From a virus, in the IMG/VR virus record IMGVR_UViG_3300045049_000234, positions 32,001-96,000 of that record: a stretch of 64,000 nucleotides of DNA. The stretch is one strand, 5' to 3'. A program made the translations under genes and the position numbers. Every line of letters starts with the position of its first letter. Within the stretch, counting starts at the first letter, position 1. The notes under the pieces are model-generated. The model saw only the letters and a program-made list of their open reading frames with translations. It did no database searches and was not told the origin of the DNA. Positions 2,649-28,529 of this stretch are shown here, piece by piece.

Positions 2649-3156
2649 TCACGTCGCGTTCCGGGGGCGCCTGAAGCTCAGCGTCCTTGACGCGGCGGGC
2701 CGCGTGGTGGACGAGCGCGAAGGCGACAATGTGGTGTGCACCACCGGCTATACGGCCATCGCCGCCGCGCTGGCGTGGTCGGGTATCCAGGACCAGGCGG
2801 CGAACCTGGGCATCACCACACCCACGTACCTGACGCCGCTGTACGGCGCGGTCGGCTCCGGTGCGGGGGCCGTCGCGAAGGCGGATACGCAGCTCCAGAC
2901 GGAGTTGGGGCGCGTCGTGGTGTCCGGTACCGGGGCCACGCCCGCGTCCGCGAGCATCGCGGCGCAGACCACATGGCTGTTCTACTTCCCGAACCCACCG
3001 TCCACGTGGACGGTGGCCGAGGCGGGCGTCTTCGCAAACGCGTCGGCGACGGCGAACTCCGGATCGATGATCGACCACTGGTCGTTCTCGCCGTCGGTGC
3101 CCGTGCCGACCACGAACACGCTCGTGCTTGAGGTAAGCCTGCTGTTCGGCCCGTAG
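2629..3156 (+). CDS. Minor tail protein (start uncertain)
   Basis: GSG...DTQLQTELGR and TVAEAGVF motifs of tail fibre/baseplate N-terminal-like proteins. Confidence 0.65.
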   Translation: MRVRGVDHVAFRGRLKLSVLDAAGRVVDEREGDNVVCTTGYTAIAAALAWSGIQDQAANLGITTPTYLTPLYGAVGSGAGAVAKADTQLQTELGRVVVSGTGATPASASIAAQTTWLFYFPNPPSTWTVAEAGVFANASATANSGSMIDHWSFSPSVPVPTTNTLVLEVSLLFGP

Positions 3157-3164
3157 GAGGGGAC

Positions 3165-3905
3165 ATGGCCGGTCCCTCGTGGCTGGCGGCAACCGCCGGG
3201 CAGCCCGCCTATGCCGGGCAGCTCAATCAGTTCCTGGCGAGCCATGGGGCTACATGGCTGTACGCGGGTACCCAACAGGCCGCGCAAACCACCGGTAACG
3301 CCGTCTATTCTGCGAGCAACGGGCAGTACATCGCGCAGTCGTTCACCACCGGCGTGTCGCAGACCGCTGTCGGCCAGGTGTGGCTCCAGGTCAGCGCGGT
3401 CGGCGGCTCCCCCGTTACGCAGGCCATACCGCCGCTCACCCTGGCGCTGTACGCAAGCTCCGGGGGCGCCCCCACCGGTGCAGCGCTGGGCAGCGTCGCC
3501 GTGAACGAGACATACGTGTACAACGCCCCCTTCTGGGTGCAGTTCCCGCTCGCGGTGAGCGGGCTGACGCCGAGCACGGTCTATCAACTGGTTACCTTCC
3601 CCGCCGGTGCATCCGCGAACTACTACGCTTGGCAGCACTCGAACCAGGTCATCGGCGGTTCCCTGAGCGCGGACGGCGTCACCTGGACGACACAGGCATT
3701 CGGCTTCATGTACCAGGTCTTCGATCAGAGCGCGGGCGGCAACCTGCTGTACATCACCGAGGACGGCGGTGCGCGCTGGACCAGCCTCACCTATGACGCG
3801 TTCAACCGGGTGAGCACCATCACGGAGTACACCACTGGCGCGACCGCACTGACTTCGGTGCGCACCTTCGCCTACAGCAACGGCAGCTTAACGGGGGTGA
3901 GTTGA
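3165..3905 (+). CDS. Minor tail protein, paralog 1
   Basis: RBS AGGAGG; similar to 5493-6218 and to the ends of 6228-8564. Confidence 0.7.
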   Translation: MAGPSWLAATAGQPAYAGQLNQFLASHGATWLYAGTQQAAQTTGNAVYSASNGQYIAQSFTTGVSQTAVGQVWLQVSAVGGSPVTQAIPPLTLALYASSGGAPTGAALGSVAVNETYVYNAPFWVQFPLAVSGLTPSTVYQLVTFPAGASANYYAWQHSNQVIGGSLSADGVTWTTQAFGFMYQVFDQSAGGNLLYITEDGGARWTSLTYDAFNRVSTITEYTTGATALTSVRTFAYSNGSLTGVS

Positions 3906-10849: not shown

Positions 10850-10897
10850 ATCTCATGTTAACCGATGCCACGGGTACTACATCACCGTGAGGATGCC

Positions 10898-11926
10898 ATG
10901 ACTGTATTCGTCGCCGACATCGCCAGCTACCAACACGGCCTGAACGTGGCCAGCCTGCGCCCCGACTGCGTGGGCGTCCAGATCAAGTGCACCGAGGGCG
11001 CCTCGTACGTGAACCCGGACTACGCCGGATGGCTGGCTCAGGCGAAGGCCGCCGGGCTGCTCACGGTGGCGTACCACTACGTCAACGGGGACGACCCGAC
11101 GGCGCAGGCGGCGAACCTGGCGGCGCACATCGGCGACAAGTCACTGCCGGTGATGCTGGACACCGAGAAGGGTTCCGGCAACCTGCCGCACGTCTTGGAC
11201 GTCTGCGACGCGATGGATGCGGCCGGTCTGCGCCCGAAGCTGATCTACCTGCCGCAGTTCTACTGGTCGCAGATCGGTTCGCCGGACCTGCGCGCCCCGC
11301 TGGCGTCGCGCGGCCTGATGCTGGTCTCGGCGCACTATCCGAGCACCGCGCCGGGATCGCCCGCCGGTCTGTACCCCGGCGACTCCTCGCCGCTGTGGAA
11401 CGGCTACGGCGGCGCCGTGGTGTCCATGCTCCAGTTCACCGACGCCGCCGTGGAAGGCGGGCAGCAGGTGGACATGAACGCATACCGGGGCACCGCCGCC
11501 GCGCTGGCCGCCGCGCTGGGCGCACCGGTTCAGGACGCCCCGCCGCCCGCCTACTCGTGGCCGCAGCAGCGCGAGTGGTCGGCCGGTCCATGGGCGGGGA
11601 TCTTGCAGCGCGCCCTGATGCTGGCCGGACTGAACCCCGGCGCCGTTGACACGATGTTCGGCCCGTCCACCCTCGCGGCCGTCCTGGCGTTCCAGCGCGC
11701 CCACGGGCTCGCCGTGGACGGCGTCGTAGGCAAATACACGTGGGCGGCCCTCGCGTCGCGTGTGGAGGCCGTACAGCGCGCCCTGAACCGCCACGGCGCG
11801 CACCTGGCCGTGGACGGCGAAGCGGGATCGCTCACCGCCGCCGCCGTCACCGACTTCCAGCGCGCGAACCACCTGGCGGTTGACGGGATCTGTGGACCGT
11901 TGACGAGCCACGCGCTCGGAATCTAG
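10898..11926 (+). CDS. Endolysin: GH25 muramidase plus peptidoglycan-binding domains
   Basis: DIASYQ, KCTEG, AYHY, LDTE, QFT, VDMN GH25 motifs; repeated AFQRAHGLAVDGVVG PG-binding motifs. Confidence 0.9.
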   Translation: MTVFVADIASYQHGLNVASLRPDCVGVQIKCTEGASYVNPDYAGWLAQAKAAGLLTVAYHYVNGDDPTAQAANLAAHIGDKSLPVMLDTEKGSGNLPHVLDVCDAMDAAGLRPKLIYLPQFYWSQIGSPDLRAPLASRGLMLVSAHYPSTAPGSPAGLYPGDSSPLWNGYGGAVVSMLQFTDAAVEGGQQVDMNAYRGTAAALAAALGAPVQDAPPPAYSWPQQREWSAGPWAGILQRALMLAGLNPGAVDTMFGPSTLAAVLAFQRAHGLAVDGVVGKYTWAALASRVEAVQRALNRHGAHLAVDGEAGSLTAAAVTDFQRANHLAVDGICGPLTSHALGI

Positions 11927-14891: not shown

Positions 14892-15073
14892 GGGCCAAGG
14901 AACACGAGCTGCGACGGCGGGTAGAACCGGTGGTCGTTCGGGAAGTCATCCCACGATACGCGGAATGATCCGTCGCGTTCCTCAACGACAGTGCCCGGCG
15001 ACGGGCAGTCCACAAGGGCCACCCTGTCGCCGGGCACGAACGCCGGGCCGGACCTACGCCGCCGGGCTGTCAT
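14888..15073 (-). CDS. Small SH3-like hypothetical protein
   Basis: FVPGDRVAL...GTVVE...FRVSWD pattern; overlaps the Ro60 stop. Confidence 0.45.
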   Translation of the reverse strand: MTARRRRSGPAFVPGDRVALVDCPSPGTVVEERDGSFRVSWDDFPNDHRFYPPSQLVFLGP

Positions 15074-16772
15074 CCTGCTCCCACGGCCAGCGGTCGCCGC
15101 GACCAGCCGCCGCCCACGCGAACATCTTGAACACCGCGTCCGAGAAACCGCCGACCTCGAACCGGTTCGGCTGCTTGGTGTCGATCGACGCCTTGGAGTA
15201 GCCCGTGGTGTCGATCCCGAACAGCGGCACCGACGCCGGGACCGCGTCGGACACCGACGTGGCGCGCGGCGCGACCAGCCCGGACCGGCGCACGCCGTAC
15301 CCGCCGCTGTAGTACCCGCCGTACGCGAACGCCTGGCCGTCGGTGACCACGATTACCCGGTCGTGGCCCTTGAACGTGGCCTCGATGGCGCCGATGGTCT
15401 GCGTGCCGTGGCCCACCTCGCCGATGCGCTTGGTGAACCGGTCGATCTCGCGCAGCATGCTGCCGCCCAGCGCGATGTCGTGCTGGAACACGCCGTCCGC
15501 GTAGCCGTACAGGCTCACTTTGCCGCCGGTGCGGTACGCCAGCGCCACGCCGATCAGCGCGCCGATGTCCACGTGCCGGATCTGCGACTTGCCAGACACC
15601 GGGGACTGCATGGAGCTGGAGGTGTCCACCAGCACCAGCGTGCGCCCGTCCAGGAGCGGGATGTTCGCCGTGGCCGCTGCCAGCGCCTGCTCCAGCGCGT
15701 GACCCCACCGCAGCGACGGTGCGGCCTTGTACGCCGACAGGAACCGGTACGGGAACTGCCGAGAGCGCGCCACTTCCGCCGGGTCGGCGATCTTCGCCGC
15801 CACCTGCGCCGCGACCTTGTCAGAGACCTTCGCCTCGTCGAAGTTGCGCAGGTTGCGGATCAGCGCCATGTAGCCCATCGACGGGATGATCGCCTCCCAC
15901 GCGGCGCGGTCCATCGGACCCTGAAGCCAACCGGCCAGGATCTCCCACGTGATGCCCGCGTCGTTCAGACGCTGCGCCCCGCCGTCGGCCAGCAGGACCG
16001 CACGGCGCTCCGCCACCGGCAGCGCCATCAGATCGCGGTTCGCGCGCAGGATGCGCAGCGACTCGGGAACGTCCAGCTCCGGCTCGTGCGGCTTGGACAC
16101 CACGTAGTCGAACAGGTCGTGCTGCCACGGCGCCTTGATGGTCTGCGCGGAGTCGTCGCGGTCGCCCGAGTGCGTCAGGTCCAGCACGCGGCGCCACGAG
16201 AAGCCGGGGTGCGCCACGTCGCCGTACTTGATGAAATTGCGCTCGTTGCCCATGCGGATCATGGCGTCGGCGATACCGCGCTTGAGCGGCTTGGGCAACG
16301 CCATCCCGTAGCGCGACGTCCAGTACGCCAAAAGCTCGCCGGGCTCGTCCGGGCGCTGGAGCGCGTCGCGCACGACGCTGCGCGCGGAGATGGTCGGCAG
16401 CGGGTACTGCGTGCCGGTGCGGCCGGTGCCCATCTCGTCGCGGCGCGCGTGGACGTACTCCGCCGCCGCGACGACCGACGCCGAGCGCATCAGGCCCTCG
16501 CTGCGAAGCCACTTGATGAACCGCGCGGTCCAGTCGGGGTGCTGGACGGCGCACTGACGCACCAGGTTGCGGAACCGGACGTCGCGGTCGCCCGCCTTCT
16601 CGTAGAACGTGTCCTCGCCGACCATGTTCGTCACGGCCAGCAGGAACAGATCGGACTGCGGGGTGCGGGTCCACGCGGCGCCGCCCTCGTGGGTGGTGGT
16701 GCGCTCGTCGGTGGTCCGGATGACGCCCGGCGCAGTGGTCTGCTTGCCGAGCTGCTTGGTGAACTTCGCCAC
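15054..16772 (-). CDS. rsr: Ro60 / TROVE-domain RNA-binding protein (Rsr-like) with C-terminal vWA
   Basis: THEGG, DTFYE, MRS, KY, TWE, MGYMALIRNLRN, SRQFPYRFLSAY TROVE motifs; vWA MIDAS LVDTSSSM and VIVVTDGQ. Confidence 0.93.
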   Translation of the reverse strand: MAKFTKQLGKQTTAPGVIRTTDERTTTHEGGAAWTRTPQSDLFLLAVTNMVGEDTFYEKAGDRDVRFRNLVRQCAVQHPDWTARFIKWLRSEGLMRSASVVAAAEYVHARRDEMGTGRTGTQYPLPTISARSVVRDALQRPDEPGELLAYWTSRYGMALPKPLKRGIADAMIRMGNERNFIKYGDVAHPGFSWRRVLDLTHSGDRDDSAQTIKAPWQHDLFDYVVSKPHEPELDVPESLRILRANRDLMALPVAERRAVLLADGGAQRLNDAGITWEILAGWLQGPMDRAAWEAIIPSMGYMALIRNLRNFDEAKVSDKVAAQVAAKIADPAEVARSRQFPYRFLSAYKAAPSLRWGHALEQALAAATANIPLLDGRTLVLVDTSSSMQSPVSGKSQIRHVDIGALIGVALAYRTGGKVSLYGYADGVFQHDIALGGSMLREIDRFTKRIGEVGHGTQTIGAIEATFKGHDRVIVVTDGQAFAYGGYYSGGYGVRRSGLVAPRATSVSDAVPASVPLFGIDTTGYSKASIDTKQPNRFEVGGFSDAVFKMFAWAAAGRGDRWPWEQDDSPAA

Positions 16773-16821
16773 GGTCGGGTTCCTCTCTACGTGCGTGTGC
16801 TGTGCGGGAGGAACCGGCAGG

Positions 16822-16961
16822 GGTGACCCGAGATTGAAGCGACGGCGGCTGTTTTGACTGATGCTCTACCAAGTGAGCTACCGAGGGTAAAGCCCCCCGG
16901 ATTGGGATCGAACCAATAACCTTCAGTTCCGAAGTATCCGCCATCAGGGCACCGGGTCACC
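16822..16961 (-). ncRNA. Y-RNA-like unit (YrlA-type permuted tRNA: T arm, closed acceptor, D arm)
   Basis: Terminal 9-bp stem; AUUGG-UUCGAUC-CCAAU; CCGGGGG/CCCUCGG; GCUC-ACUUGGUA-GAGC. Confidence 0.85.
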
Positions 16962-16970
16962 GGTGCTGGA

Positions 16971-17099
16971 CCTCCCGAGGTTGGGGTGTGCGGGACTAAG
17001 TTGCCTTAGACCATCTCGGCCACACGCGGCGGACCGCGTGACAGGATTCGAACCTGCGTTCGTTTGCACGAAGTAAGTTCCGCACGGGGCACCGGGAGA
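16971..17099 (-). ncRNA. Y-RNA-like unit (GCAA hairpin, T arm, closed acceptor, D arm)
   Basis: Scaffold CCGGUGCC..UACUUC..CAACCUCGG; GCAGG-UUCGAAU-CCUGU; CACGCGG/CCGCGUG. Confidence 0.82.
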
Positions 17100-17133
17100 T
17101 GCCTTTACTGTCAGTGTTCAGTTGTCAATGGGG

Positions 17134-17279
17134 TCGCGCCCGAGGTTGAGTCGGTGATCGTTGTTCTCTGTTGTGCTGCCGTTACACCACACGCCCCAGG
17201 TGGGGGGCGCGCCGGATTCGAACCGGACCTCCGGTTCCCTAGACCGGTGAAGTAACGATCTCCTTGGCACCGGGCGCGA
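17134..17279 (-). ncRNA. Y-RNA-like unit (anticodon arm AGG, T arm, closed acceptor, D arm)
   Basis: CCGGU-CUAGGGA-ACCGG; CCGG-UUCGAAU-CCGG; CGCGCCCC/GGGGCGUG. Confidence 0.82.
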
Positions 17280-17288
17280 TGTCTGTGG

Positions 17289-17435
17289 GCCGTGTCCGAG
17301 ATTGAGGTCGGACGATCGTGACGTTAGGTGCTCTGGGCCACTGAGCCACAGGGGACACAGTCCCCCGCCGGGATTCGAACCCGGGTCACCCGCTTAAGAG
17401 GCGAAGTAACGATCATCCTGGGCACCGGACACGGC
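17289..17435 (-). ncRNA. Y-RNA-like unit (anticodon arm CUU, T arm, closed acceptor, D arm)
   Basis: UUCGC-CUCUUAA-GCGGG; CCGGG-UUCGAAU-CCCGG; GCUC-AGUGGCCCA-GAGC. Confidence 0.82.
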
Positions 17436-17445
17436 ATCCGTTTAG

Positions 17446-17592
17446 TCCACCCCGAGGTTGAATCAGAGACCGGTATTCTTAAAGAAGGACTCGAACCTTC
17501 ACCTCCGGCTTTTCAAAGCCAGCGTGCTGCCAATTACACCACTCGGCCATGAGTGGCCGAGGAAGTATCGGTATCAATGGCACCGGGATGGA
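17446..17592 (-). ncRNA. Y-RNA-like unit (closed acceptor, D arm, anticodon arm, T arm)
   Basis: CUCGGCCA/UGGCCGAG; GUG-UAAUUGGCAG-CAC; CUGGC-UUUGAAAA-GCCGG; GAAGG-UUCGAGU-CCUUC. Confidence 0.82.
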
Positions 17593-17600
17593 TGCCTGGC

Positions 17601-17712
17601 CCCTCCCGAGATTGAGGTGGCCGACGGAGAACGGGACTTGAACCCGCAGCGTTTCCTTGGAAGGGAAATTTCGAACCATTCGAAGTAACCGTAGACCTGG
17701 GCACCGGGAGGG
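17601..17712 (-). ncRNA. Y-RNA-like unit (D arm, anticodon arm UCC, T arm in canonical order)
   Basis: UUUCC-CUUCCAA-GGAAA; GCGGG-UUCAAGU-CCCGU. Confidence 0.82.
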
Positions 17713-17721
17713 AATTCTATG

Positions 17722-17800
17722 GTGTCCCCGAGATTGAAAGCGGCGGCCGGTGTGTTTCCATTTGGAGTGAAGTAACCGATTGCCTGGGCACCGGGGACAC
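17722..17800 (-). ncRNA. Minimal Y-RNA-like unit with Trp-type anticodon loop
   Basis: Scaffold plus UUCA-CUCCAAA-UGGA. Confidence 0.75.
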
Positions 17801-17806
17801 GTACGC

Positions 17807-17929
17807 GGCATTCCCGAGGTTCACGGTGGATCGACGACGGGGGTTCTCCGTCCCCACGCTCCGCGTGAGGGTTCCCCCTATGGTGCACTGGTGGAGGAAG
17901 TATCGCCGGTCCGAGGCACCGGGAATGCC
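17807..17929 (-). ncRNA. Y-RNA-like unit with non-tRNA insert
   Basis: 10-bp terminal stem and same scaffold motifs; no T-loop. Confidence 0.7.
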
Positions 17930-17953
17930 CACTGTTCAGTTATCAAGAAGCGC

Positions 17954-18033
17954 GTCCCCGAGATTAAGGGCGACGTCCGGAACGGGATTCAAATTTACAG
18001 TTTGAAGTAGCCGGTCGTCTGGGCACCGGGGAC
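17954..18033 (-). ncRNA. Minimal Y-RNA-like unit with Tyr-type anticodon loop
   Basis: Scaffold plus UUCAAA-CUGUAAA-UUUGAA. Confidence 0.78.
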
Positions 18034-18081
18034 AAAGTCGGTGCGTTTCGGCGGGGGTTGGGTTCCCGTTTCAACACGCAT

Positions 18082-18118: not shown

Positions 18119-18637
18119 TTAGCCGCGCGCCGCGATGTCGGCGAACATGCGCACGCTGTCCACGATGTCGTCCGTCAGCCCCGTCGCCGGGTCCGCCGTG
18201 ATCAGCAGCGTGGGCGCGGTGTGCGCCGTGCGCCGGTTGCCGCGCGTGAGCATGCCCATGGTGAACCCGTCGTCGATCCACGCGAACGGCCGGATGCCCG
18301 CGTACTGCAACACGTGATCCCACTTCCATTCGGCGGTCACGTCGTACTCGGAGAACCGGCGATTCATCGGCGCCACCGGCATCGGGTCCAGCCCGATCAG
18401 CGGCGCCAGGTGGGTGTTCGCGCGGTCGTTCCACGTGGTCGCCCACACGTGTTCCACGATGTCGTCCAGCGACCGCACGCGCTTGACGTCGCCGGGGTCC
18501 AGCACGAGCGGCACCGGGCGCGGCATGCCGGGCAGGTCGATCGTGTGGCGCAGCCACTCGCCGCCGGTCACGTTCTGGAGCGGGTAGCGGTTGAACACCC
18601 CGTCCACATCCCAGAACAGCAGCGGCTTGCCGGTCAC
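18119..18637 (-). CDS. HAD phosphatase, RNA-repair (Swiss-army-knife HAD) type
   Basis: LLFWDVDGV, VWATTW, PFAWIDD, DPATGLT motifs. Confidence 0.8.
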   Translation of the reverse strand: MTGKPLLFWDVDGVFNRYPLQNVTGGEWLRHTIDLPGMPRPVPLVLDPGDVKRVRSLDDIVEHVWATTWNDRANTHLAPLIGLDPMPVAPMNRRFSEYDVTAEWKWDHVLQYAGIRPFAWIDDGFTMGMLTRGNRRTAHTAPTLLITADPATGLTDDIVDSVRMFADIAARG

Positions 18638-19683
18638 CGCGCCTCGGCCGGGATGATCAGCAGCTTGTCGCCGTCGTACATCTTGCGGTTCACAGACGTG
18701 GACTGCACGAAGATCGTGTACTCCGGGTTGATGTCCGGGCTCACCCGCGTGTCGATGTCCGGCAGCCCCAGGATGTCCCGCGCGCCGTCGCCGACGTACA
18801 CGACGCCGGTCTTCTTCTCGTGGACGGCGATGCGCTTGGTGCGCTGGATCGTGACACGGCGCTTGAGTTCGTAGAAGGCCGCGCCGATCCGGTAGTCCAT
18901 GCGCAACTGATCCACAACCCAGTCACGGATCTCCGCGTCCTCGGTCACCGTGGTCAGCGTGTAGGCGCTGCCAGGCAGCGGGGTGAGCGTGGAACGTACG
19001 GTGTCCCGGTTGACGGCGTCGATGCCGGTGGAGAAGATCGCCCGGCTGCCGCGCACGCCCTGCGCCCGGTTCGCCATGAACCGGTCGGTGGCGGCGCGGA
19101 TCGTGTTGCCGACCTCCCGCACACCGTGCGCGGACGTGGTGTCCCACACGGCGATGTTGTCGGCGGCGAACCCGAACCGCTTGGCCTCGAACACGCCCAT
19201 CTGGTTCGGCACCATCACGGCCACCGTCCAGTTGTCCGGCAGTGCGCGCAGCCGCGCGGACAGGTGCGCGGAGGTGTGGATGCGGCTGCGGTTCTCCTCG
19301 CCGTCGGTGATCACGTAGACCAGGAACGCATGGTCGCCGTAGATCTCCGGCGTCTTGGCCAGATCATCCAGCGCCGTCATGGTCGCGTCGATCAGCGCCG
19401 TGTTGCGCTCGGCGCGGTAGTGCTCCGCGATCGAAGGCAGGCGCAGCACGTCCCGATCGTAGAACACGCATTCGGCGGCCTGTTTGACGCCGGGCACGGC
19501 CTCGTTGAACACGTAGACCGTCGCCCGCGTCTCCTGGTCCATCACAGTGGACCGTTCGGCCAGGTGGGACACCATGCCATCCGTGACGGCCACCACGTCG
19601 CGGGCGAACCGGGACATGGACAGCGAGCCGTCCAGCACGATGGCGATGTGGTTGATGTAGCCCTGTGTGGGGTGTTTGTTCAT
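18634..19683 (-). CDS. vWA domain protein
   Basis: IVLDGSLSM, TALIDA, VITDGEENRS. Confidence 0.8.
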   Translation of the reverse strand: MNKHPTQGYINHIAIVLDGSLSMSRFARDVVAVTDGMVSHLAERSTVMDQETRATVYVFNEAVPGVKQAAECVFYDRDVLRLPSIAEHYRAERNTALIDATMTALDDLAKTPEIYGDHAFLVYVITDGEENRSRIHTSAHLSARLRALPDNWTVAVMVPNQMGVFEAKRFGFAADNIAVWDTTSAHGVREVGNTIRAATDRFMANRAQGVRGSRAIFSTGIDAVNRDTVRSTLTPLPGSAYTLTTVTEDAEIRDWVVDQLRMDYRIGAAFYELKRRVTIQRTKRIAVHEKKTGVVYVGDGARDILGLPDIDTRVSPDINPEYTIFVQSTSVNRKMYDGDKLLIIPAEAR

Positions 19684-26276: not shown

Positions 26277-27131
26277 TTACTCTGCGTCGGTGTCGGGTTC
26301 CTCGACGTCTTCGACCACATCGCCGTCCACGATGTCGGCGGCGTCCGTCACTTCGGTGGCGTCGGTGCGCGGGTTGACGTCCAACCGCACGCCGCCGTCC
26401 ACGGCCAGTCCGCGCACGTACTGCGTGGACCGGGGCGCCGTCTTGAGTACATCGATAAGCGTTGTTTTCAACGCCATGGCATCAAAGTGATCACGCCACG
26501 GGCCGACGATCTCGCCATTCTTGCGGGCCATCGCGAACTTGTCGCGGTGTTCCTCGCAGTCCTCGCGTGTCCACGCGGAGAACAGCGGCCGGGGACCGCC
26601 CACCAGATGAACCACCGAGTAGTAATCGGTCACCGGTCCGCGAGCGGCGCGGGGCGCCCGCGACGGGATGTGCTCGATACGGCTGTCCGTTCCGTACCTA
26701 ACGTCGAAGAAATCACTTTCGTAACGCTTGTGCGCCTCGATCGACACCACGCGGTCCGACCGGTACGCCAGGTTGATCAATCCCGGATAGCCGATGATCA
26801 AGGTGGCTTCCATGCGCCCCTTGTTGCGCATCGGCAGCAGCCACGCCTCGCCCAGCACCGCCGGGCGCAGACCGAGCTGTGCGCACGTCATCAGGCCGCC
26901 CAGCACGGACATCGGGTCGCACTCCGCCAGGCGCGGCGTCTTGCGCAGGACCGTCATGGCGTCGCGGGCAAGCTGGACGGCGTCGTGGCCGCGCGGCATG
27001 GCCCGCTCGAAATCCGGGATCATCTTCCTGATCTCGTCGGCCAGGGACCGCCGCCCCTCGTCCGGCGTGCGCGGGGTGTTCGGCGCCAGTTCGCCGCGCT
27101 GCGTGCGCATCCGGTTCGCCAGGTCGTTCAT
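26277..27131 (-). CDS. recT: RecT single-strand annealing protein
   Basis: CDPMSVLGGLMTCAQLGLRP...GEAWLLP...IIGYPGLINLAYRS...MALKT. Confidence 0.9.
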   Translation of the reverse strand: MNDLANRMRTQRGELAPNTPRTPDEGRRSLADEIRKMIPDFERAMPRGHDAVQLARDAMTVLRKTPRLAECDPMSVLGGLMTCAQLGLRPAVLGEAWLLPMRNKGRMEATLIIGYPGLINLAYRSDRVVSIEAHKRYESDFFDVRYGTDSRIEHIPSRAPRAARGPVTDYYSVVHLVGGPRPLFSAWTREDCEEHRDKFAMARKNGEIVGPWRDHFDAMALKTTLIDVLKTAPRSTQYVRGLAVDGGVRLDVNPRTDATEVTDAADIVDGDVVEDVEEPDTDAE

Positions 27132-27524: not shown

Positions 27525-28529
27525 TCACGTCATGGTTGGGTTGAACCGGCGTGACCGGTAGGCGGTGTAGATGTCGGGGTGTTCCTTGGCGAACCGGTCC
27601 TTGTCGAACTCCACGACGGTGCGCGTGTAGGCGTCGTACAGGCCCGGCTTGTCCTCGCGCAGAGCGTTGACGTTCATCGGGCCGGTGTTGCGCCATGTGA
27701 CCACCGGTTTGTCGTCCACGAGCCCCGCATGCGCGGAGCCGAGCGCGGCGCACACGCGCGCCTGCGCGGCGTCCTGCGCCGCCTTCAGCGCTTTGATCTG
27801 TTCGCCCAGCGACCGGTATTCGGCCAGGTCGTACAGCGCGTCGCGGTCCAACACCACGGCCTCGTCAAGGTCCGCCATCGGATGCAGGCGCTTGATCAGC
27901 TCCGGGTCGGCGGCGTGCATCCCGAACTCCGGCGGCACCTGCGGCAGGACGTGCTGATGCCAGAACTCGTCCTCGATCGCGGTCAGGTCGCTGATCAGCG
28001 ACTCGTCGCGGTCCACCCGCCGCACCACCAGTTCCACGCCGACCAGCGCGGCAATCCACACGTGGGTGCGGCCGGTGACCTTCAGCCCGTGCTGGCCCTG
28101 TACCGCCGCGCGGTCCGTCACCGCGCCGTCGGCCCACTCCGAGGCCATGCGGAAGCTCGTGGTCTTCATCTCCAGCAGCCCGCCGTCCTCGGTCAGGCCG
28201 TCGGGCGTGTAGAGCTGCCAGGGGTTCTCACGCGACTGGAGCAGCCCGCACGTGGTCACGCGTACGCCGGTCACTTCGGTGAACCACTCGCGGATCATCG
28301 GCTCGGCGCGGTGGCCGAACGCCATCGCCGGAGTGTAAGGCATCTCCGGAAGCCGCGACGTCTTGTCCAGGTAGACCTTGAGGCGGGATGAGAACGGGTC
28401 CAGACCGGCCACACCGGGCGCGTCCGATCCGCCGATCCCCTGCTGCCGTGCGCGCAGCCACATGTCCCGTGGGGCGCCGTGGGGCAGCAGCTCCTCACAC
28501 TCGTCCGTGGAGTTCACACCGGGGGTCAT
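27525..28529 (-). CDS. YqaJ-like exonuclease (RecE partner)
   Basis: WLRARQQGIGGSD, GHRAEP, YTPDG, LLEMKT, QGQHGL. Confidence 0.9.
   Translation of the reverse strand: MTPGVNSTDECEELLPHGAPRDMWLRARQQGIGGSDAPGVAGLDPFSSRLKVYLDKTSRLPEMPYTPAMAFGHRAEPMIREWFTEVTGVRVTTCGLLQSRENPWQLYTPDGLTEDGGLLEMKTTSFRMASEWADGAVTDRAAVQGQHGLKVTGRTHVWIAALVGVELVVRRVDRDESLISDLTAIEDEFWHQHVLPQVPPEFGMHAADPELIKRLHPMADLDEAVVLDRDALYDLAEYRSLGEQIKALKAAQDAAQARVCAALGSAHAGLVDDKPVVTWRNTGPMNVNALREDKPGLYDAYTRTVVEFDKDRFAKEHPDIYTAYRSRRFNPTMT

What the first reader, a model, noticed from the sequence alone, without database searches (positions are those of the whole stretch)
16822..17712. tRNA cargos are grafted into the scaffold in four different circular permutations
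Seen, 5' to 3' on the minus strand. 16822-16961: T, closed acceptor, D (opened at the anticodon, classic YrlA). 17134-17279 and 17289-17435 (and 16971-17099 with a GCAA hairpin): anticodon, T, closed acceptor, D (opened between D and anticodon arms). 17446-17592: closed acceptor, D, anticodon, T (opened after T). 17601-17712: D, anticodon, T (scaffold replaces the acceptor stem). Known YrlA, as I recall, uses only the first topology. Inference: each topology exposes a different tRNA face with no chargeable end, as expected for decoys. It also implies repeated capture of tRNA sequence via circular or tandem intermediates.
Basis: partly seen in the sequence, partly recalled or inferred. Interest (0 to 1): 0.85.

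Follow-up and report, generated by a model that had tools for sequence, protein, structure and literature searches.

The report
Phage Y-RNA array with permuted tRNA modules
A phage carries nine small RNA genes in a row, all sharing one handle for the RNA-binding protein Ro60 but carrying tRNA look-alikes wired to that handle at four different points; two of the wirings were already known and one is new.

Summary
On the minus strand, directly upstream of a phage Ro60 (rsr) gene, lie nine tandem Y-RNA units (A-I, 18034-16821), not six. Each has the same handle: a lower stem, a CCGGUGCC-containing internal loop, a variable upper stem, and YUAC-UUC.

Modules of units D-I are tRNA-like with different connectivity:
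- I: T, closed acceptor, D (classic YrlA).
- F, G: anticodon arm, T, closed acceptor, D. H is the same with a GNRA-capped stub.
- E: closed acceptor, D, anticodon arm, T.
- D: D, anticodon arm, T, with the handle as acceptor.

Re-circularised cargos E-I score 107-129 in ARAGORN; this phage's real tRNAs score 104-126. Only 1 of 200 shuffles gave a hit.

The I and D wirings are published (YrlA, Yrn1). The F/G wiring is the commonest form in about 160 phage and actinobacterial rsr loci and matches the published "V stem-loop". I show that this hairpin has anticodon-arm geometry and a U33/R37/A38 loop signature. Only the E wiring is unique. "No chargeable end" is doubtful: M. smegmatis YrlA is cut by RNase P and receives CCA, and the acceptor loops here keep N73-C74. 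A decoy role is untested.

Other first-stage readers flagged this same stretch; none was followed up.

The parts
15054..16772 (-). Ro60/Rsr gene (572 aa), immediately downstream of the array
   Evidence: Pfam TROVE E 8.9e-15 and VWA_2. 35-40% identical to annotated Ro-like RNA-binding proteins of Streptomyces, Gordonia and Arthrobacter phages. 47-57% identical to Rsr of cellular Actinobacteria.
17951..18034 (-). Unit A: handle plus a single anticodon-like hairpin (6-bp stem, 7-nt loop, triplet GUA)
   Evidence: A homologous unit occurs in L032.
17807..17927 (-). Unit B: handle plus a module that is not tRNA-like
   Evidence: no ARAGORN or Rfam hit.
17721..17799 (-). Unit C: handle plus a single D-arm-like hairpin
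   Evidence: Similar short units occur in BRock, GiJojo, VanLee and L009.
17599..17712 (-). Unit D, native order. Acceptor-like helix 17692-17686 with 17630-17624, continuous with the handle's upper stem. D arm 17684-17670 (its 5' strand is the conserved CUUC). Anticodon arm 17668-17652 (triplet UCC). Variable loop 17651-17648. T arm 17647-17631.
   Evidence: Rfam tRNA 32.2 bits over positions 1-71. ARAGORN 95.2 at relaxed threshold. Index map. Same wiring in L020 and L032.
17445..17591 (-). Unit E. Acceptor 3' strand 17561-17555, loop 17554-17549, acceptor 5' strand 17548-17542. D arm 17539-17524. Anticodon arm 17522-17505 (8-nt loop). Variable loop 17504-17501. T arm 17500-17484. A 10-11-nt linker leads to upper stem 3' strand 17472-17466.
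   Evidence: Rfam tRNA 36.7 bits over positions 6-65. ARAGORN 117.4 after re-circularisation. Index map. The only unit of this wiring among about 540 sites surveyed.
17289..17433 (-). Unit F. Anticodon arm 17405-17389 (triplet CUU). Variable loop 17388-17385. T arm 17384-17368. Acceptor 3' strand 17367-17361, loop, acceptor 5' strand 17355-17349. D arm 17346-17330. A 10-nt linker leads to upper stem 3' strand 17319-17310.
   Evidence: ARAGORN 128.9 after re-circularisation. Rfam YrlA 29.8 bits, partial match. Orthologous units in VanLee, L005, L027, L032, L015 and L018 carry other triplets.
17133..17278 (-). Unit G. Anticodon arm 17247-17231 (triplet AGG). Variable loop 17230-17227. T arm 17226-17212. 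Acceptor 3' strand 17211-17204, loop, acceptor 5' strand 17197-17190. D arm 17187-17173. Upper stem 3' strand 17162-17156.
   Evidence: ARAGORN 119.5. The nearest real tRNA is BRock tRNA-Gln(CUG), with the D arm identical but for one base and a similar anticodon arm. Homologues: GiJojo unit 5 and L005 unit 3, the latter with CUG.
16968..17100 (-). Unit H. 5-bp stem with GCAA tetraloop 17072-17059 in the anticodon-arm position. T arm 17057-17041. Acceptor 17040-17034 with 17029-17023. D arm 17020-17003. An alternative GCAA hairpin at 17009-16996 competes with the D arm.
   Evidence: MFE fold. ARAGORN 107.4, at threshold. Rfam YrlA 17 bits.
16821..16960 (-). Unit I, classic YrlA. Anticodon-stem 3' strand 16927-16923. 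Variable loop 16922-16918. T arm 16917-16901. Acceptor 16900-16894 with 16887-16881. D arm 16878-16863. Anticodon-stem 5' strand 16861-16857.
   Evidence: Rfam YrlA 45.7 bits, full length, E 1.5e-8. ARAGORN 115.2 after re-circularisation.
18119..18637 (-). Upstream gene with a HAD phosphatase domain of 'Swiss Army Knife' RNA-repair proteins, same strand. It overlaps by 4 nt a 349-aa gene of unknown function (18634-19683).
   Evidence: Pfam HAD_SAK_2, E 7.8e-7. phrog_26613, unknown function, for the 349-aa protein.

Best explanation
This is most of a nine-gene tandem array of Ro60-associated Y RNAs of the actinobacterial YrlA lineage. It is encoded by a complete 111-kb high-GC actinophage, directly upstream of its rsr gene.

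Each unit has a constant handle that presumably binds Ro60: a lower stem formed by the unit's two ends, an internal loop carrying CCGGUGCC opposite CAAYCUCGG, a variable upper stem, then YUAC-UUC. Each unit also has a variable effector module built from tRNA parts.

The module is a tRNA body joined to the handle at different points of the cloverleaf:
- through the anticodon stem (I);
- at the D/anticodon hinge (F, G; H is a degenerate form);
- at the T/acceptor junction (E);
- through the acceptor stem (D).
Units A and C carry a single arm.

Shown here: the anatomy, its tRNA-likeness, its family-wide conservation, and descent of at least G and F from real tRNAs.

Inferred:
- The units are made from one precursor together with rsr and bound by Ro60 at the handle.
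- The tRNA-shaped module acts as bait or adaptor for proteins that recognise tRNA, such as nucleases, RNase P, and modification or repair enzymes. Ro60, and whatever nuclease it recruits, is thereby held at a different face of the L-shape in each unit.
- The closed 7-8-bp acceptor hairpins are probably opened by RNase P, as in M. smegmatis YrlA.
- All wirings can be read as differently phased windows on tandem tRNA sequence.
For: Array and handle:
- Nine exact handle motifs against 0.08 expected.
- Both handle stems pair in all nine units with unit-specific compensating sequences.
- Same strand as, and 48 nt upstream of, a TROVE+VWA gene.

tRNA-likeness:
- Rfam YrlA hit on I and Rfam tRNA hits on D and E.
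- Re-circularised cargos score 107-129 in ARAGORN, against 1 weak hit in 200 shuffles.
- R15/Y48 pairing association across re-permuted units, Fisher p 8e-6; the sequences are not independent.

The anticodon arm is real:
- 19 of 35 long-enough phage segments have a perfect 5-bp stem, 7-nt loop and 4-5-nt variable loop abutting the T stem; shuffles give 0.73.
- Among the 25 arms with at least 4 of 5 pairs, the loop shows Y32 22/25, U33 22/25, R37 21/25 and A38 22/25, with 18 different triplets.
- 44 of 88 bacterial segments show the same arm, with U33 42/44 and A38 44/44.
- Stem covariation: 39 double-change cells against 10.6 in shuffles.
- G's arm resembles that of a real tRNA-Gln(CUG) and F's that of a real tRNA-Arg/Lys.

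Family context:
- Related arrays lie upstream of Ro in BRock, GiJojo, VanLee and more than 100 metagenomic and cellular loci.

Processing precedent and signature:
- Closing loops start N-C in 34 of 39 cases, and some spell ACCA.

RNA-repair neighbour: HAD_SAK_2.
Against:
- The best YrlA score, 45.7 bits, is below Rfam's gathering score of 69. That model also gives sub-threshold hits in control genomes.
- The handle's 5' motif differs from the published GNCGAAN0-1G.
- Unit E is a singleton, so its wiring has no comparative support.
- H is marginal.
- The anticodon triplet matches the isotype of the tRNA body in only 3 of 27 units, against about 2 expected by chance. Most loops therefore cannot be shown to descend from the same tRNA as the body.
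- No sigma-70 promoter or terminator was found, so the transcription units are unknown.
Confidence: 0.72

Rival explanations
1. Specific decoy library. The displayed anticodon loops and tRNA faces titrate host tRNA-targeting nucleases (anticodon nucleases, VapC/MazF-type toxins, PrrC/RloC-like enzymes), or deliver them to Ro60-associated decay, and so protect host and phage tRNAs during infection. This refines the best explanation rather than excluding it.
For: - Intact anticodon-type loops with a conserved U-turn signature but hypervariable triplets between orthologous units of different phages: CUU, UCU, GUU, GAG, UGG, CUG.
- Several loops per array: GUA, UCC, an 8-nt loop, CUU and AGG here.
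- Ro genes sit inside phage tRNA gene clusters in BRock and GiJojo.
- An RNA-repair-type HAD gene lies next door.
- This array is the largest of 76 loci, 9 units against 5 or fewer.
Against: - The same anticodon-arm design is equally common in chromosomal rsr loci of Streptomyces and relatives. It is therefore not a phage-specific counter-defence invention.
- Triplet variability is also what relaxed constraint would give.
- No nuclease partner has been identified, and there is no experiment.
Confidence: 0.28
2. Classical reading. The hairpin 5' of the T arm in F, G and H is the 'V' (variable-arm) stem-loop already described for YrlA, and the handle's upper stem is the anticodon-stem analogue. 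On this view F, G, H and I share one topology, and only D and E differ.
For: - Chen et al. 2014 (PMC4201824) modelled this stem-loop as the variable arm and noted that the conserved YUAY begins it. Here YUAC directly precedes it.
- The Salmonella YrlA crystal structure has the 5'/3' stem in the anticodon-stem position (10.1101/312249).
- The secondary structure is identical under both readings.
Against: - The hairpin has anticodon-arm dimensions (5 bp, 7-nt loop with Y32-U33 and R37-A38) rather than the short loops of variable arms.
- It is followed by a canonical 4-5-nt variable loop, often AGGUC, before the T stem.
- The D stem is separated from the handle by a 10-nt linker in F and G, but by 1 nt from the trans anticodon stem in I.
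- G's hairpin matches the anticodon arm of a real tRNA-Gln flanked by the same D arm.
Confidence: 0.12
3. Permuted tRNA genes. The units are precursors that are cut and religated, as in Cyanidioschyzon merolae, or cut by RNase P, into functional or chargeable tRNAs that supplement the phage's tRNA set.
For: - Re-permuted cargos score like real tRNAs.
- Acceptor loops carry N73-C74 or ACCA.
- M. smegmatis YrlA receives CCA (PMC4201824).
- Wang et al. raise this possibility.
Against: - The phage has no RtcB ligase and no CCA-adding enzyme.
- Bacteria are not known to have a splicing endonuclease.
- The anticodon loops include an 8-nt loop, AGG, and a GNRA stub.
- The triplets do not match the tRNA bodies.
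- The handle would remain attached at positions that clash with EF-Tu or the ribosome (inference).
- Unit I has no anticodon loop at all.
Confidence: 0.04
4. Non-functional debris. The modules are decaying remnants of a rearranged tRNA gene cluster, and the repeated flanks are merely a duplicated spacer.
For: - Ro genes of related phages sit inside tRNA clusters.
- H and B are degenerate.
- E is unique.
Against: - Helices are maintained by compensating changes in every unit and across about 160 loci.
- Tertiary-pair nucleotides are kept.
- The position and strand next to rsr are conserved in phages and bacteria.
- The handle motifs are strictly conserved.
Confidence: 0.04

Closest known systems
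YrlA Y RNAs (Rfam RF02553; S. Typhimurium, M. smegmatis, mycobacteriophages; Chen et al. 2014, Wang et al. 2018)
   Same: - Encoded just upstream of rsr on the same strand.
- Ro-binding stem formed by the 5' and 3' ends.
- tRNA-like domain in the order T arm, closed acceptor stem, D arm.
- Conserved YUAY before an optional stem-loop 5' of T.
- Unit I matches the model over its full length.
   Different: - All scores are below the gathering threshold.
- The handle motif is CCGGUGCC rather than GNCGAAN0-1G.
- There are nine units rather than one or two.
- The 5' stem-loop has full anticodon-arm geometry.
- Two units (D, E) have other wirings.
D. radiodurans Yrn1
   Same: Orientation D-like, anticodon-like arm, T, with the Ro-binding stem in the acceptor position. 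This is the wiring of unit D.
   Different: - Yrn1 lacks a clear D arm and has a 6-nt loop. Unit D has a canonical D arm, a 7-nt loop and a variable loop, and passes the Rfam tRNA threshold.
- No sequence homology to Yrn1 was tested.
- Unit D uses the YrlA-type handle.
Circularly permuted tRNA genes (Cyanidioschyzon merolae and others) and two-piece permuted tmRNA
   Same: The acceptor stem is closed by a loop and tRNA arms are in rotated order. Several break points are known among the permuted genes. This rests on my own knowledge and on the discussion in 10.1101/312249.
   Different: - Those precursors are processed to normal tRNAs or tmRNAs by splicing-type endonuclease and ligase, or by RNase P.
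- Here the ends are locked in a Ro60-binding stem.
- No ligase is encoded.
- The loops are non-decoding.
Thermus phage phiLo Yrl1/Yrl2 with phage Ro60 (PMC12135203)
   Same: Phage-encoded Ro60 with Y-like RNAs immediately upstream. Binding to Ro60 and to host PNPase was shown there.
   Different: There are two RNAs, with no tRNA-like modules reported. The Ro protein is only about 26% identical to this one.

Membership tests
YrlA-type bacterial Y RNA (RF02553) | Encoded within a few kb of rsr on the same strand | tested here: met
   The array ends 48 nt upstream of the TROVE+VWA ORF on the same strand.
YrlA-type bacterial Y RNA (RF02553) | tRNA-like domain in the order T arm, closed acceptor stem, D arm, with elbow nucleotides | tested here: met
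   Present in units F, G, H and I. R15/Y48 association.
YrlA-type bacterial Y RNA (RF02553) | Score at or above Rfam's gathering threshold (69 bits) | tested here: not met
   Best score 45.7 bits (unit I), then 29.8 (F) and 17 (H).
YrlA-type bacterial Y RNA (RF02553) | GNCGAAN0-1G motif near the 5' end (presumed Ro60 contact) | tested here: inconclusive
   The same position carries CCGGUGCC here. Relatives L005 and L027 carry CGCGAAGCG, L006 and L007 carry CCGGUGCG, and BRock carries CGAUGCG. This is a variant of the motif, not an exact match.
YrlA-type bacterial Y RNA (RF02553) | Bound by Ro60/Rsr | not testable with these tools
   Needs a pull-down or gel-shift experiment.
Yrn1-type wiring (Ro stem in acceptor position) | Order D, anticodon-like arm, T between the two strands of the Ro-binding stem | tested here: met
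   Unit D: Rfam tRNA 1-71, 32.2 bits, with acceptor pairs supplied by the upper stem. Also seen in L020 and L032.
tRNA (RF00005) | Cloverleaf scoring above the gathering threshold | tested here: met
   Unit D 32.2 bits and unit E 36.7 bits, against a threshold of 29. The others score as tRNAs only after re-permutation.
tRNA (RF00005) | Free, paired 5' and 3' acceptor ends in native order | tested here: not met
   Native ARAGORN at default threshold finds none. The acceptor is closed by a loop in E-I and continues into the handle in D.
Permuted tRNA genes processed to mature tRNA | Processing machinery and a decoding-competent anticodon matching the tRNA body | tested here: not met
   No RtcB or CCA-adding enzyme in the phage. 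Triplet and body agree in only 3 of 27 units. Loops include an 8-nt loop and a GNRA stub.

The most novel reading that the evidence does not exclude
The array is a combinatorial display of tRNA surfaces on one Ro60 handle. Each wiring presents a different face: the whole anticodon arm, the elbow, the acceptor/T minihelix, or single arms. After RNase P opens the acceptor hairpins, some units become two-piece, CCA-ended tRNA mimics. The phage uses this panel to trap or redirect host tRNA-targeting defence nucleases or tRNA enzymes, and the hypervariable triplets record an arms race. The E wiring, with the handle inserted at the T/acceptor junction, would be a new class of tRNA permutation.
Probability: 0.22. 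Interest if true: 0.85.

Novelty: new variant of a known kind. Interest (0 to 1): 0.6.

Why it matters
Y RNAs and Ro60 are conserved from bacteria to humans, yet the role of the tRNA-like module of bacterial Y RNAs is still unknown.

This locus is a natural experiment. One handle carries the same kind of tRNA body attached at four different places, plus single-arm versions, all in one operon with Ro60. That constrains which tRNA face matters and gives ready-made constructs for binding and structural work.

The family-wide result turns a loosely described feature into a testable one. The so-called V stem-loop of actinobacterial and phage YrlA RNAs has anticodon-arm geometry, a conserved U-turn signature and free triplets. 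This suggests partners that read anticodon loops.

The work also flags mis-annotated "tRNA" genes next to Ro in deposited phage genomes.

Tried and rejected
- **Isotype test.** I asked whether the triplet in the 5' hairpin matches the isotype of the nearest real tRNA body. Only 3 of 27 were concordant, about chance, so I dropped this as general evidence. Single cases are still informative: G and L005 unit 3 with Gln, L006 unit 2 with Glu.
- **Alignment A1.** The MAFFT alignment of anticodon arm, variable loop and T arm put the length difference at the 5' end and mis-registered the stem. I replaced it with the gapless 17-nt alignment A2. Its sequences were pre-selected for pairing, so only the covariation counts carry weight, not the percentage paired.
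- **MFE loop sizes.** MFE folding of the ACTTC-to-T segments gave noisy loop sizes. I replaced it with a fixed-register test with shuffles.
- **Native relaxed ARAGORN.** It threads the handle's 5' half as acceptor plus D arm in many F-type units. For F the acceptor pairing is poor by my hand count (about 4 of 7 pairs, including one G-U). I reject this as the present-day fold, though it fits an origin from a tRNA dimer.
- **Promoters and terminators.** The sigma-70 promoter and terminator scan found nothing.
- **Neighbouring genes.** Neighbours other than HAD_SAK_2 gave no informative Pfam, PHROG, NCBIfam or PDB hit.
- **Reviews not held.** Two reviews by Sim and Wolin were not in the library. 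I cannot exclude that the anticodon-arm reading has been stated there.
- Arm coordinates were derived instead from an index ruler.
Full report
**What is there.** The window is part of a complete 111,179-bp virus record with direct terminal repeats. Its GC content is 67.5%.

On the minus strand an ORF at 16772-15054 encodes a 572-aa protein with TROVE and VWA domains. It is 35-40% identical to proteins annotated as Ro-like RNA-binding proteins in Streptomyces, Gordonia and Arthrobacter phages. It is 47-57% identical to Rsr of cellular Streptomyces, Catenulispora, Nonomuraea and relatives.

Nine head-to-tail units lie directly upstream, 7-32 nt apart. I call them A to I, from 18034 down to 16821.

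Every unit has the same handle:
- a lower stem of 7-9 bp formed by the two ends of the unit;
- an internal loop with CCGGUGCC on the 5' side and CAAYCUCGG on the 3' side;
- an upper stem of 6-10 bp whose sequence differs completely between units but always pairs;
- the motif YUAC-UUC.

The composite pattern occurs nine times, only here, against 0.08 expected. No sigma-70 promoter or intrinsic terminator lies inside the array, so one precursor is likely; that is an inference.

**Testing the tRNA claim.** Rfam at permissive threshold gives three relevant hits:

| Unit | Family | Extent | Bits |
|---|---|---|---|
| I | YrlA | full length 1-114 | 45.7 (E 1.5e-8; below gathering score 69) |
| D | tRNA | positions 1-71 | 32.2 (gathering score 29) |
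| E | tRNA | positions 6-65 | 36.7 |

In unit D the acceptor pairs come from the top of the handle.

ARAGORN finds no tRNA in the native array. Each cargo was joined to itself, with a range of trimmed ends, and I looked for junction-spanning tRNAs at default threshold. The scores were E 117.4, F 128.9, G 119.5, H 107.4 and I 115.2. The same enumeration on 200 dinucleotide shuffles gave a single hit of 100.9. The ten genuine tRNAs of this phage score 104-126. The stated refutation criterion is therefore not met: the cargos are tRNA-like in rotated order.

**The wirings** (index map):

| Unit | Order of elements | Note |
|---|---|---|
| I | anticodon-stem 3' strand, variable loop, T, closed 7-bp acceptor, D, anticodon-stem 5' strand | handle replaces the anticodon loop |
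| F, G | complete anticodon arm, 4-nt variable loop, T, closed acceptor, D | a 10-nt linker returns to the handle |
| H | as F and G | anticodon position is a 5-bp stem with a GCAA tetraloop; a second GCAA hairpin competes with the D arm |
| E | acceptor 3' strand, 6-nt loop, acceptor 5' strand, D, anticodon arm (8-nt loop), variable loop, T | handle enters at the T/acceptor junction |
| D | D, anticodon arm (UCC), variable loop, T | native order; conserved CUUC forms the 5' strand of the D stem; the handle continues the acceptor helix |
| A | anticodon-like hairpin only | |
| C | D-like hairpin only | |
| B | not tRNA-like | |

**What is already known.** Chen et al. 2014 (PMC4201824) defined YrlA as T, acceptor stem, D. 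[quoted passage not shown] They also described D. radiodurans Yrn1 in the opposite orientation, with a 5-bp anticodon-like arm between D and T. Finally, they showed that M. smegmatis YrlA, which has a 7-bp acceptor stem, is cut by RNase P and receives CCA in vivo.

Wang et al. 2018 (10.1101/312249) call YrlA RNAs circularly permuted tRNAs. They quote a model in which YrlA arose from a dimeric tRNA transcript.

So the I wiring and the D wiring are published. The secondary structure of F and G is the published V-containing form.

**Survey of relatives.** I fetched Ro loci from three sources:
- annotated phages;
- IMG/VR and metagenomes;
- bacterial genomes.

The same re-circularisation pipeline was applied to each.

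| Set | Units surveyed | F/G | I | Other | E | No tRNA-like module |
|---|---|---|---|---|---|---|
| 80 phage and metagenome loci | 207 unique | 56 | 13 | 6 (mostly I variants) | 1 (this window) | 131 |
| 80 cellular actinobacterial loci | 329 ACTTC sites | 64 | 19 | 13 | 0 | 233 |

The D wiring recurs in only two other phage loci, L020 and L032, with other triplets. It was essentially absent from the bacterial loci. This array, with nine units, is the largest of 76 loci with enough upstream sequence; the others have five or fewer.

**Anticodon arm or variable arm?** In a fixed-register test I asked whether the 17 nt that end 4-5 nt before the T stem form a 5-bp stem with a 7-nt loop.
- Among 35 long-enough phage segments, 19 do so perfectly; shuffles give 0.73, with a maximum of 4 in 500.
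- Among 88 bacterial segments, 44 do so perfectly.
- In the 25 phage arms with at least 4 of 5 pairs, the loops read Y32 (22/25), U33 (22/25), three free positions (18 triplets), R37 (21/25), A38 (22/25).
- In the bacterial set U33 is 42/44 and A38 is 44/44.
- The stem covaries: 39 double-change cells against 10.6 in shuffles. The sequences were pre-selected for pairing.
- The connector to the T stem is often AGGUC, a canonical variable loop.
- G's D arm is identical but for one base to that of BRock tRNA-Gln(CUG), and its anticodon arm is similar.
- F's arm closely matches that of a real phage tRNA-Arg(CCU)/Lys(CUU).

I conclude that this hairpin is an anticodon-arm mimic, in several cases by descent. 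The "V arm" label describes the same helix less accurately, at least in Actinobacteria and their phages. I could not read two reviews, so I cannot say that this has never been stated.

One test gave no support. The triplet agrees with the isotype of the nearest tRNA body in only 3 of 27 units. The triplets are therefore free to vary, either under diversifying selection or under no selection.

**Acceptor loops and chargeability.** Among 39 units with at least 6 of 7 acceptor pairs:
- the closing loop has C as its second base in 34;
- eight loops begin ACUC, including unit E;
- four begin ACCA and two CCCA;
- the last base is U in 17.

These loops look like a discriminator base plus the start of CCA, a short trailer, and the next tRNA's 5' end. 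That is the junction of two tandem tRNA genes. It fits both the dimer-origin model and RNase P recognition.

Together with the M. smegmatis precedent, this makes the claim of "no chargeable end" unsafe. The phage encodes neither RtcB nor a CCA-adding enzyme, so any such processing would use host enzymes.

**Origin.**
- Re-permuted E and G are 70% identical. Their D arms are the same apart from a one-base length difference and one substitution, and their anticodon stems and variable loops are similar. Different-isotype tRNAs average 61% identity, with a 95th percentile of 70%.
- All four wirings are differently phased windows on a tandem tRNA repeat (inference).
- In VanLee unit 3 the lower-stem strand nearly repeats the acceptor strand, as a dimer origin predicts.

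**Function (inferred).** Ro60 presumably binds the handle. The module then offers a tRNA shape to some tRNA-recognising partner, with Ro60 held at a different position on the L-shape in each unit.

The gene neighbourhood points to tRNA damage, repair or surveillance:
- a HAD domain of the RNA-repair type lies upstream;
- Ro genes sit inside tRNA clusters in related phages.

A decoy role against anticodon nucleases is attractive. However, the design is shared with chromosomal rsr loci, so it cannot be a purely phage counter-defence device. What the phage adds is number and diversity.

**Verdict.** The feature is real. It belongs to a known kind (the YrlA/Yrn1 Y RNAs) with three new aspects:
- four wirings on one handle in one array;
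- a so far unique wiring in unit E;
- a family-wide anticodon-arm signature.

Other first-stage readers of this scan flagged the same stretch; none of those notes had been followed up.

Noticed in passing
window 17946-17933 and 17128-17115 (minus strand); also L004 about 2986-2999 and spacers in L005-L007: A conserved spacer motif, TTGAYAACTGAACA or more generally ACAACTG-A-A, sits 12-25 nt upstream of units B and H. It also precedes units in VanLee and several IMG/VR relatives. It could be a phage promoter element or a processing signal; the sigma-70 scan did not call it.
   Followed up: partly
L004 3150-3221 (Gordonia phage VanLee, annotated tRNA-Arg(tct)); L003 3269-3343 (Streptomyces phage GiJojo, annotated tRNA-Arg(cct)): These deposited tRNA annotations directly upstream of Ro are F/G-type Y-RNA units. 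The gene caller threaded the Ro-binding handle as acceptor plus D arm. They are probably not tRNAs.
   Followed up: partly
L004 about 3141-3290 (VanLee unit 3): The 5' strand of the handle's lower stem is almost the same sequence as the 5' strand of the closed acceptor stem, and likewise for the 3' strands. Alternative pairings are therefore possible. This is what a tandem-tRNA origin predicts.
   Followed up: no
acceptor-closing loops of 39 units in loci L002-L108 and the window: The loops begin N-C in 34 of 39 cases, with ACUC eight times and ACCA four times, and often end in U. This resembles a discriminator base plus a CCA remnant plus a short trailer, and suggests RNase P recognition.
   Followed up: partly
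G000:C1 2444-2520 (complement), outside the window: The phage's own tRNA set includes a tRNA-like gene with an 8-nt anticodon loop (ctgg; ARAGORN 103.8). Unit E also has an 8-nt loop.
   Followed up: no
window 18634-19683 (-) and 18119-18637 (-): A 349-aa protein of unknown function (phrog_26613, E 6e-89) overlaps by 4 nt the HAD_SAK_2 gene just upstream of the array. It may belong to the same RNA-related operon. It has no Pfam, NCBIfam or PDB sequence match.
   Followed up: partly
window 26277-27131 (-) and 27525-28529 (-): A RecT and YqaJ-type exonuclease recombination pair lies here. An endolysin (GH25 plus peptidoglycan-binding domains) is at 10865-11926 (+). This is ordinary phage content.
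   Followed up: no
L020 about 3420-3490 (BRock-like handle, D-type unit): A native-order unit whose anticodon-like loop carries UCA. ARAGORN calls it tRNA-SeC at relaxed threshold.
   Followed up: no
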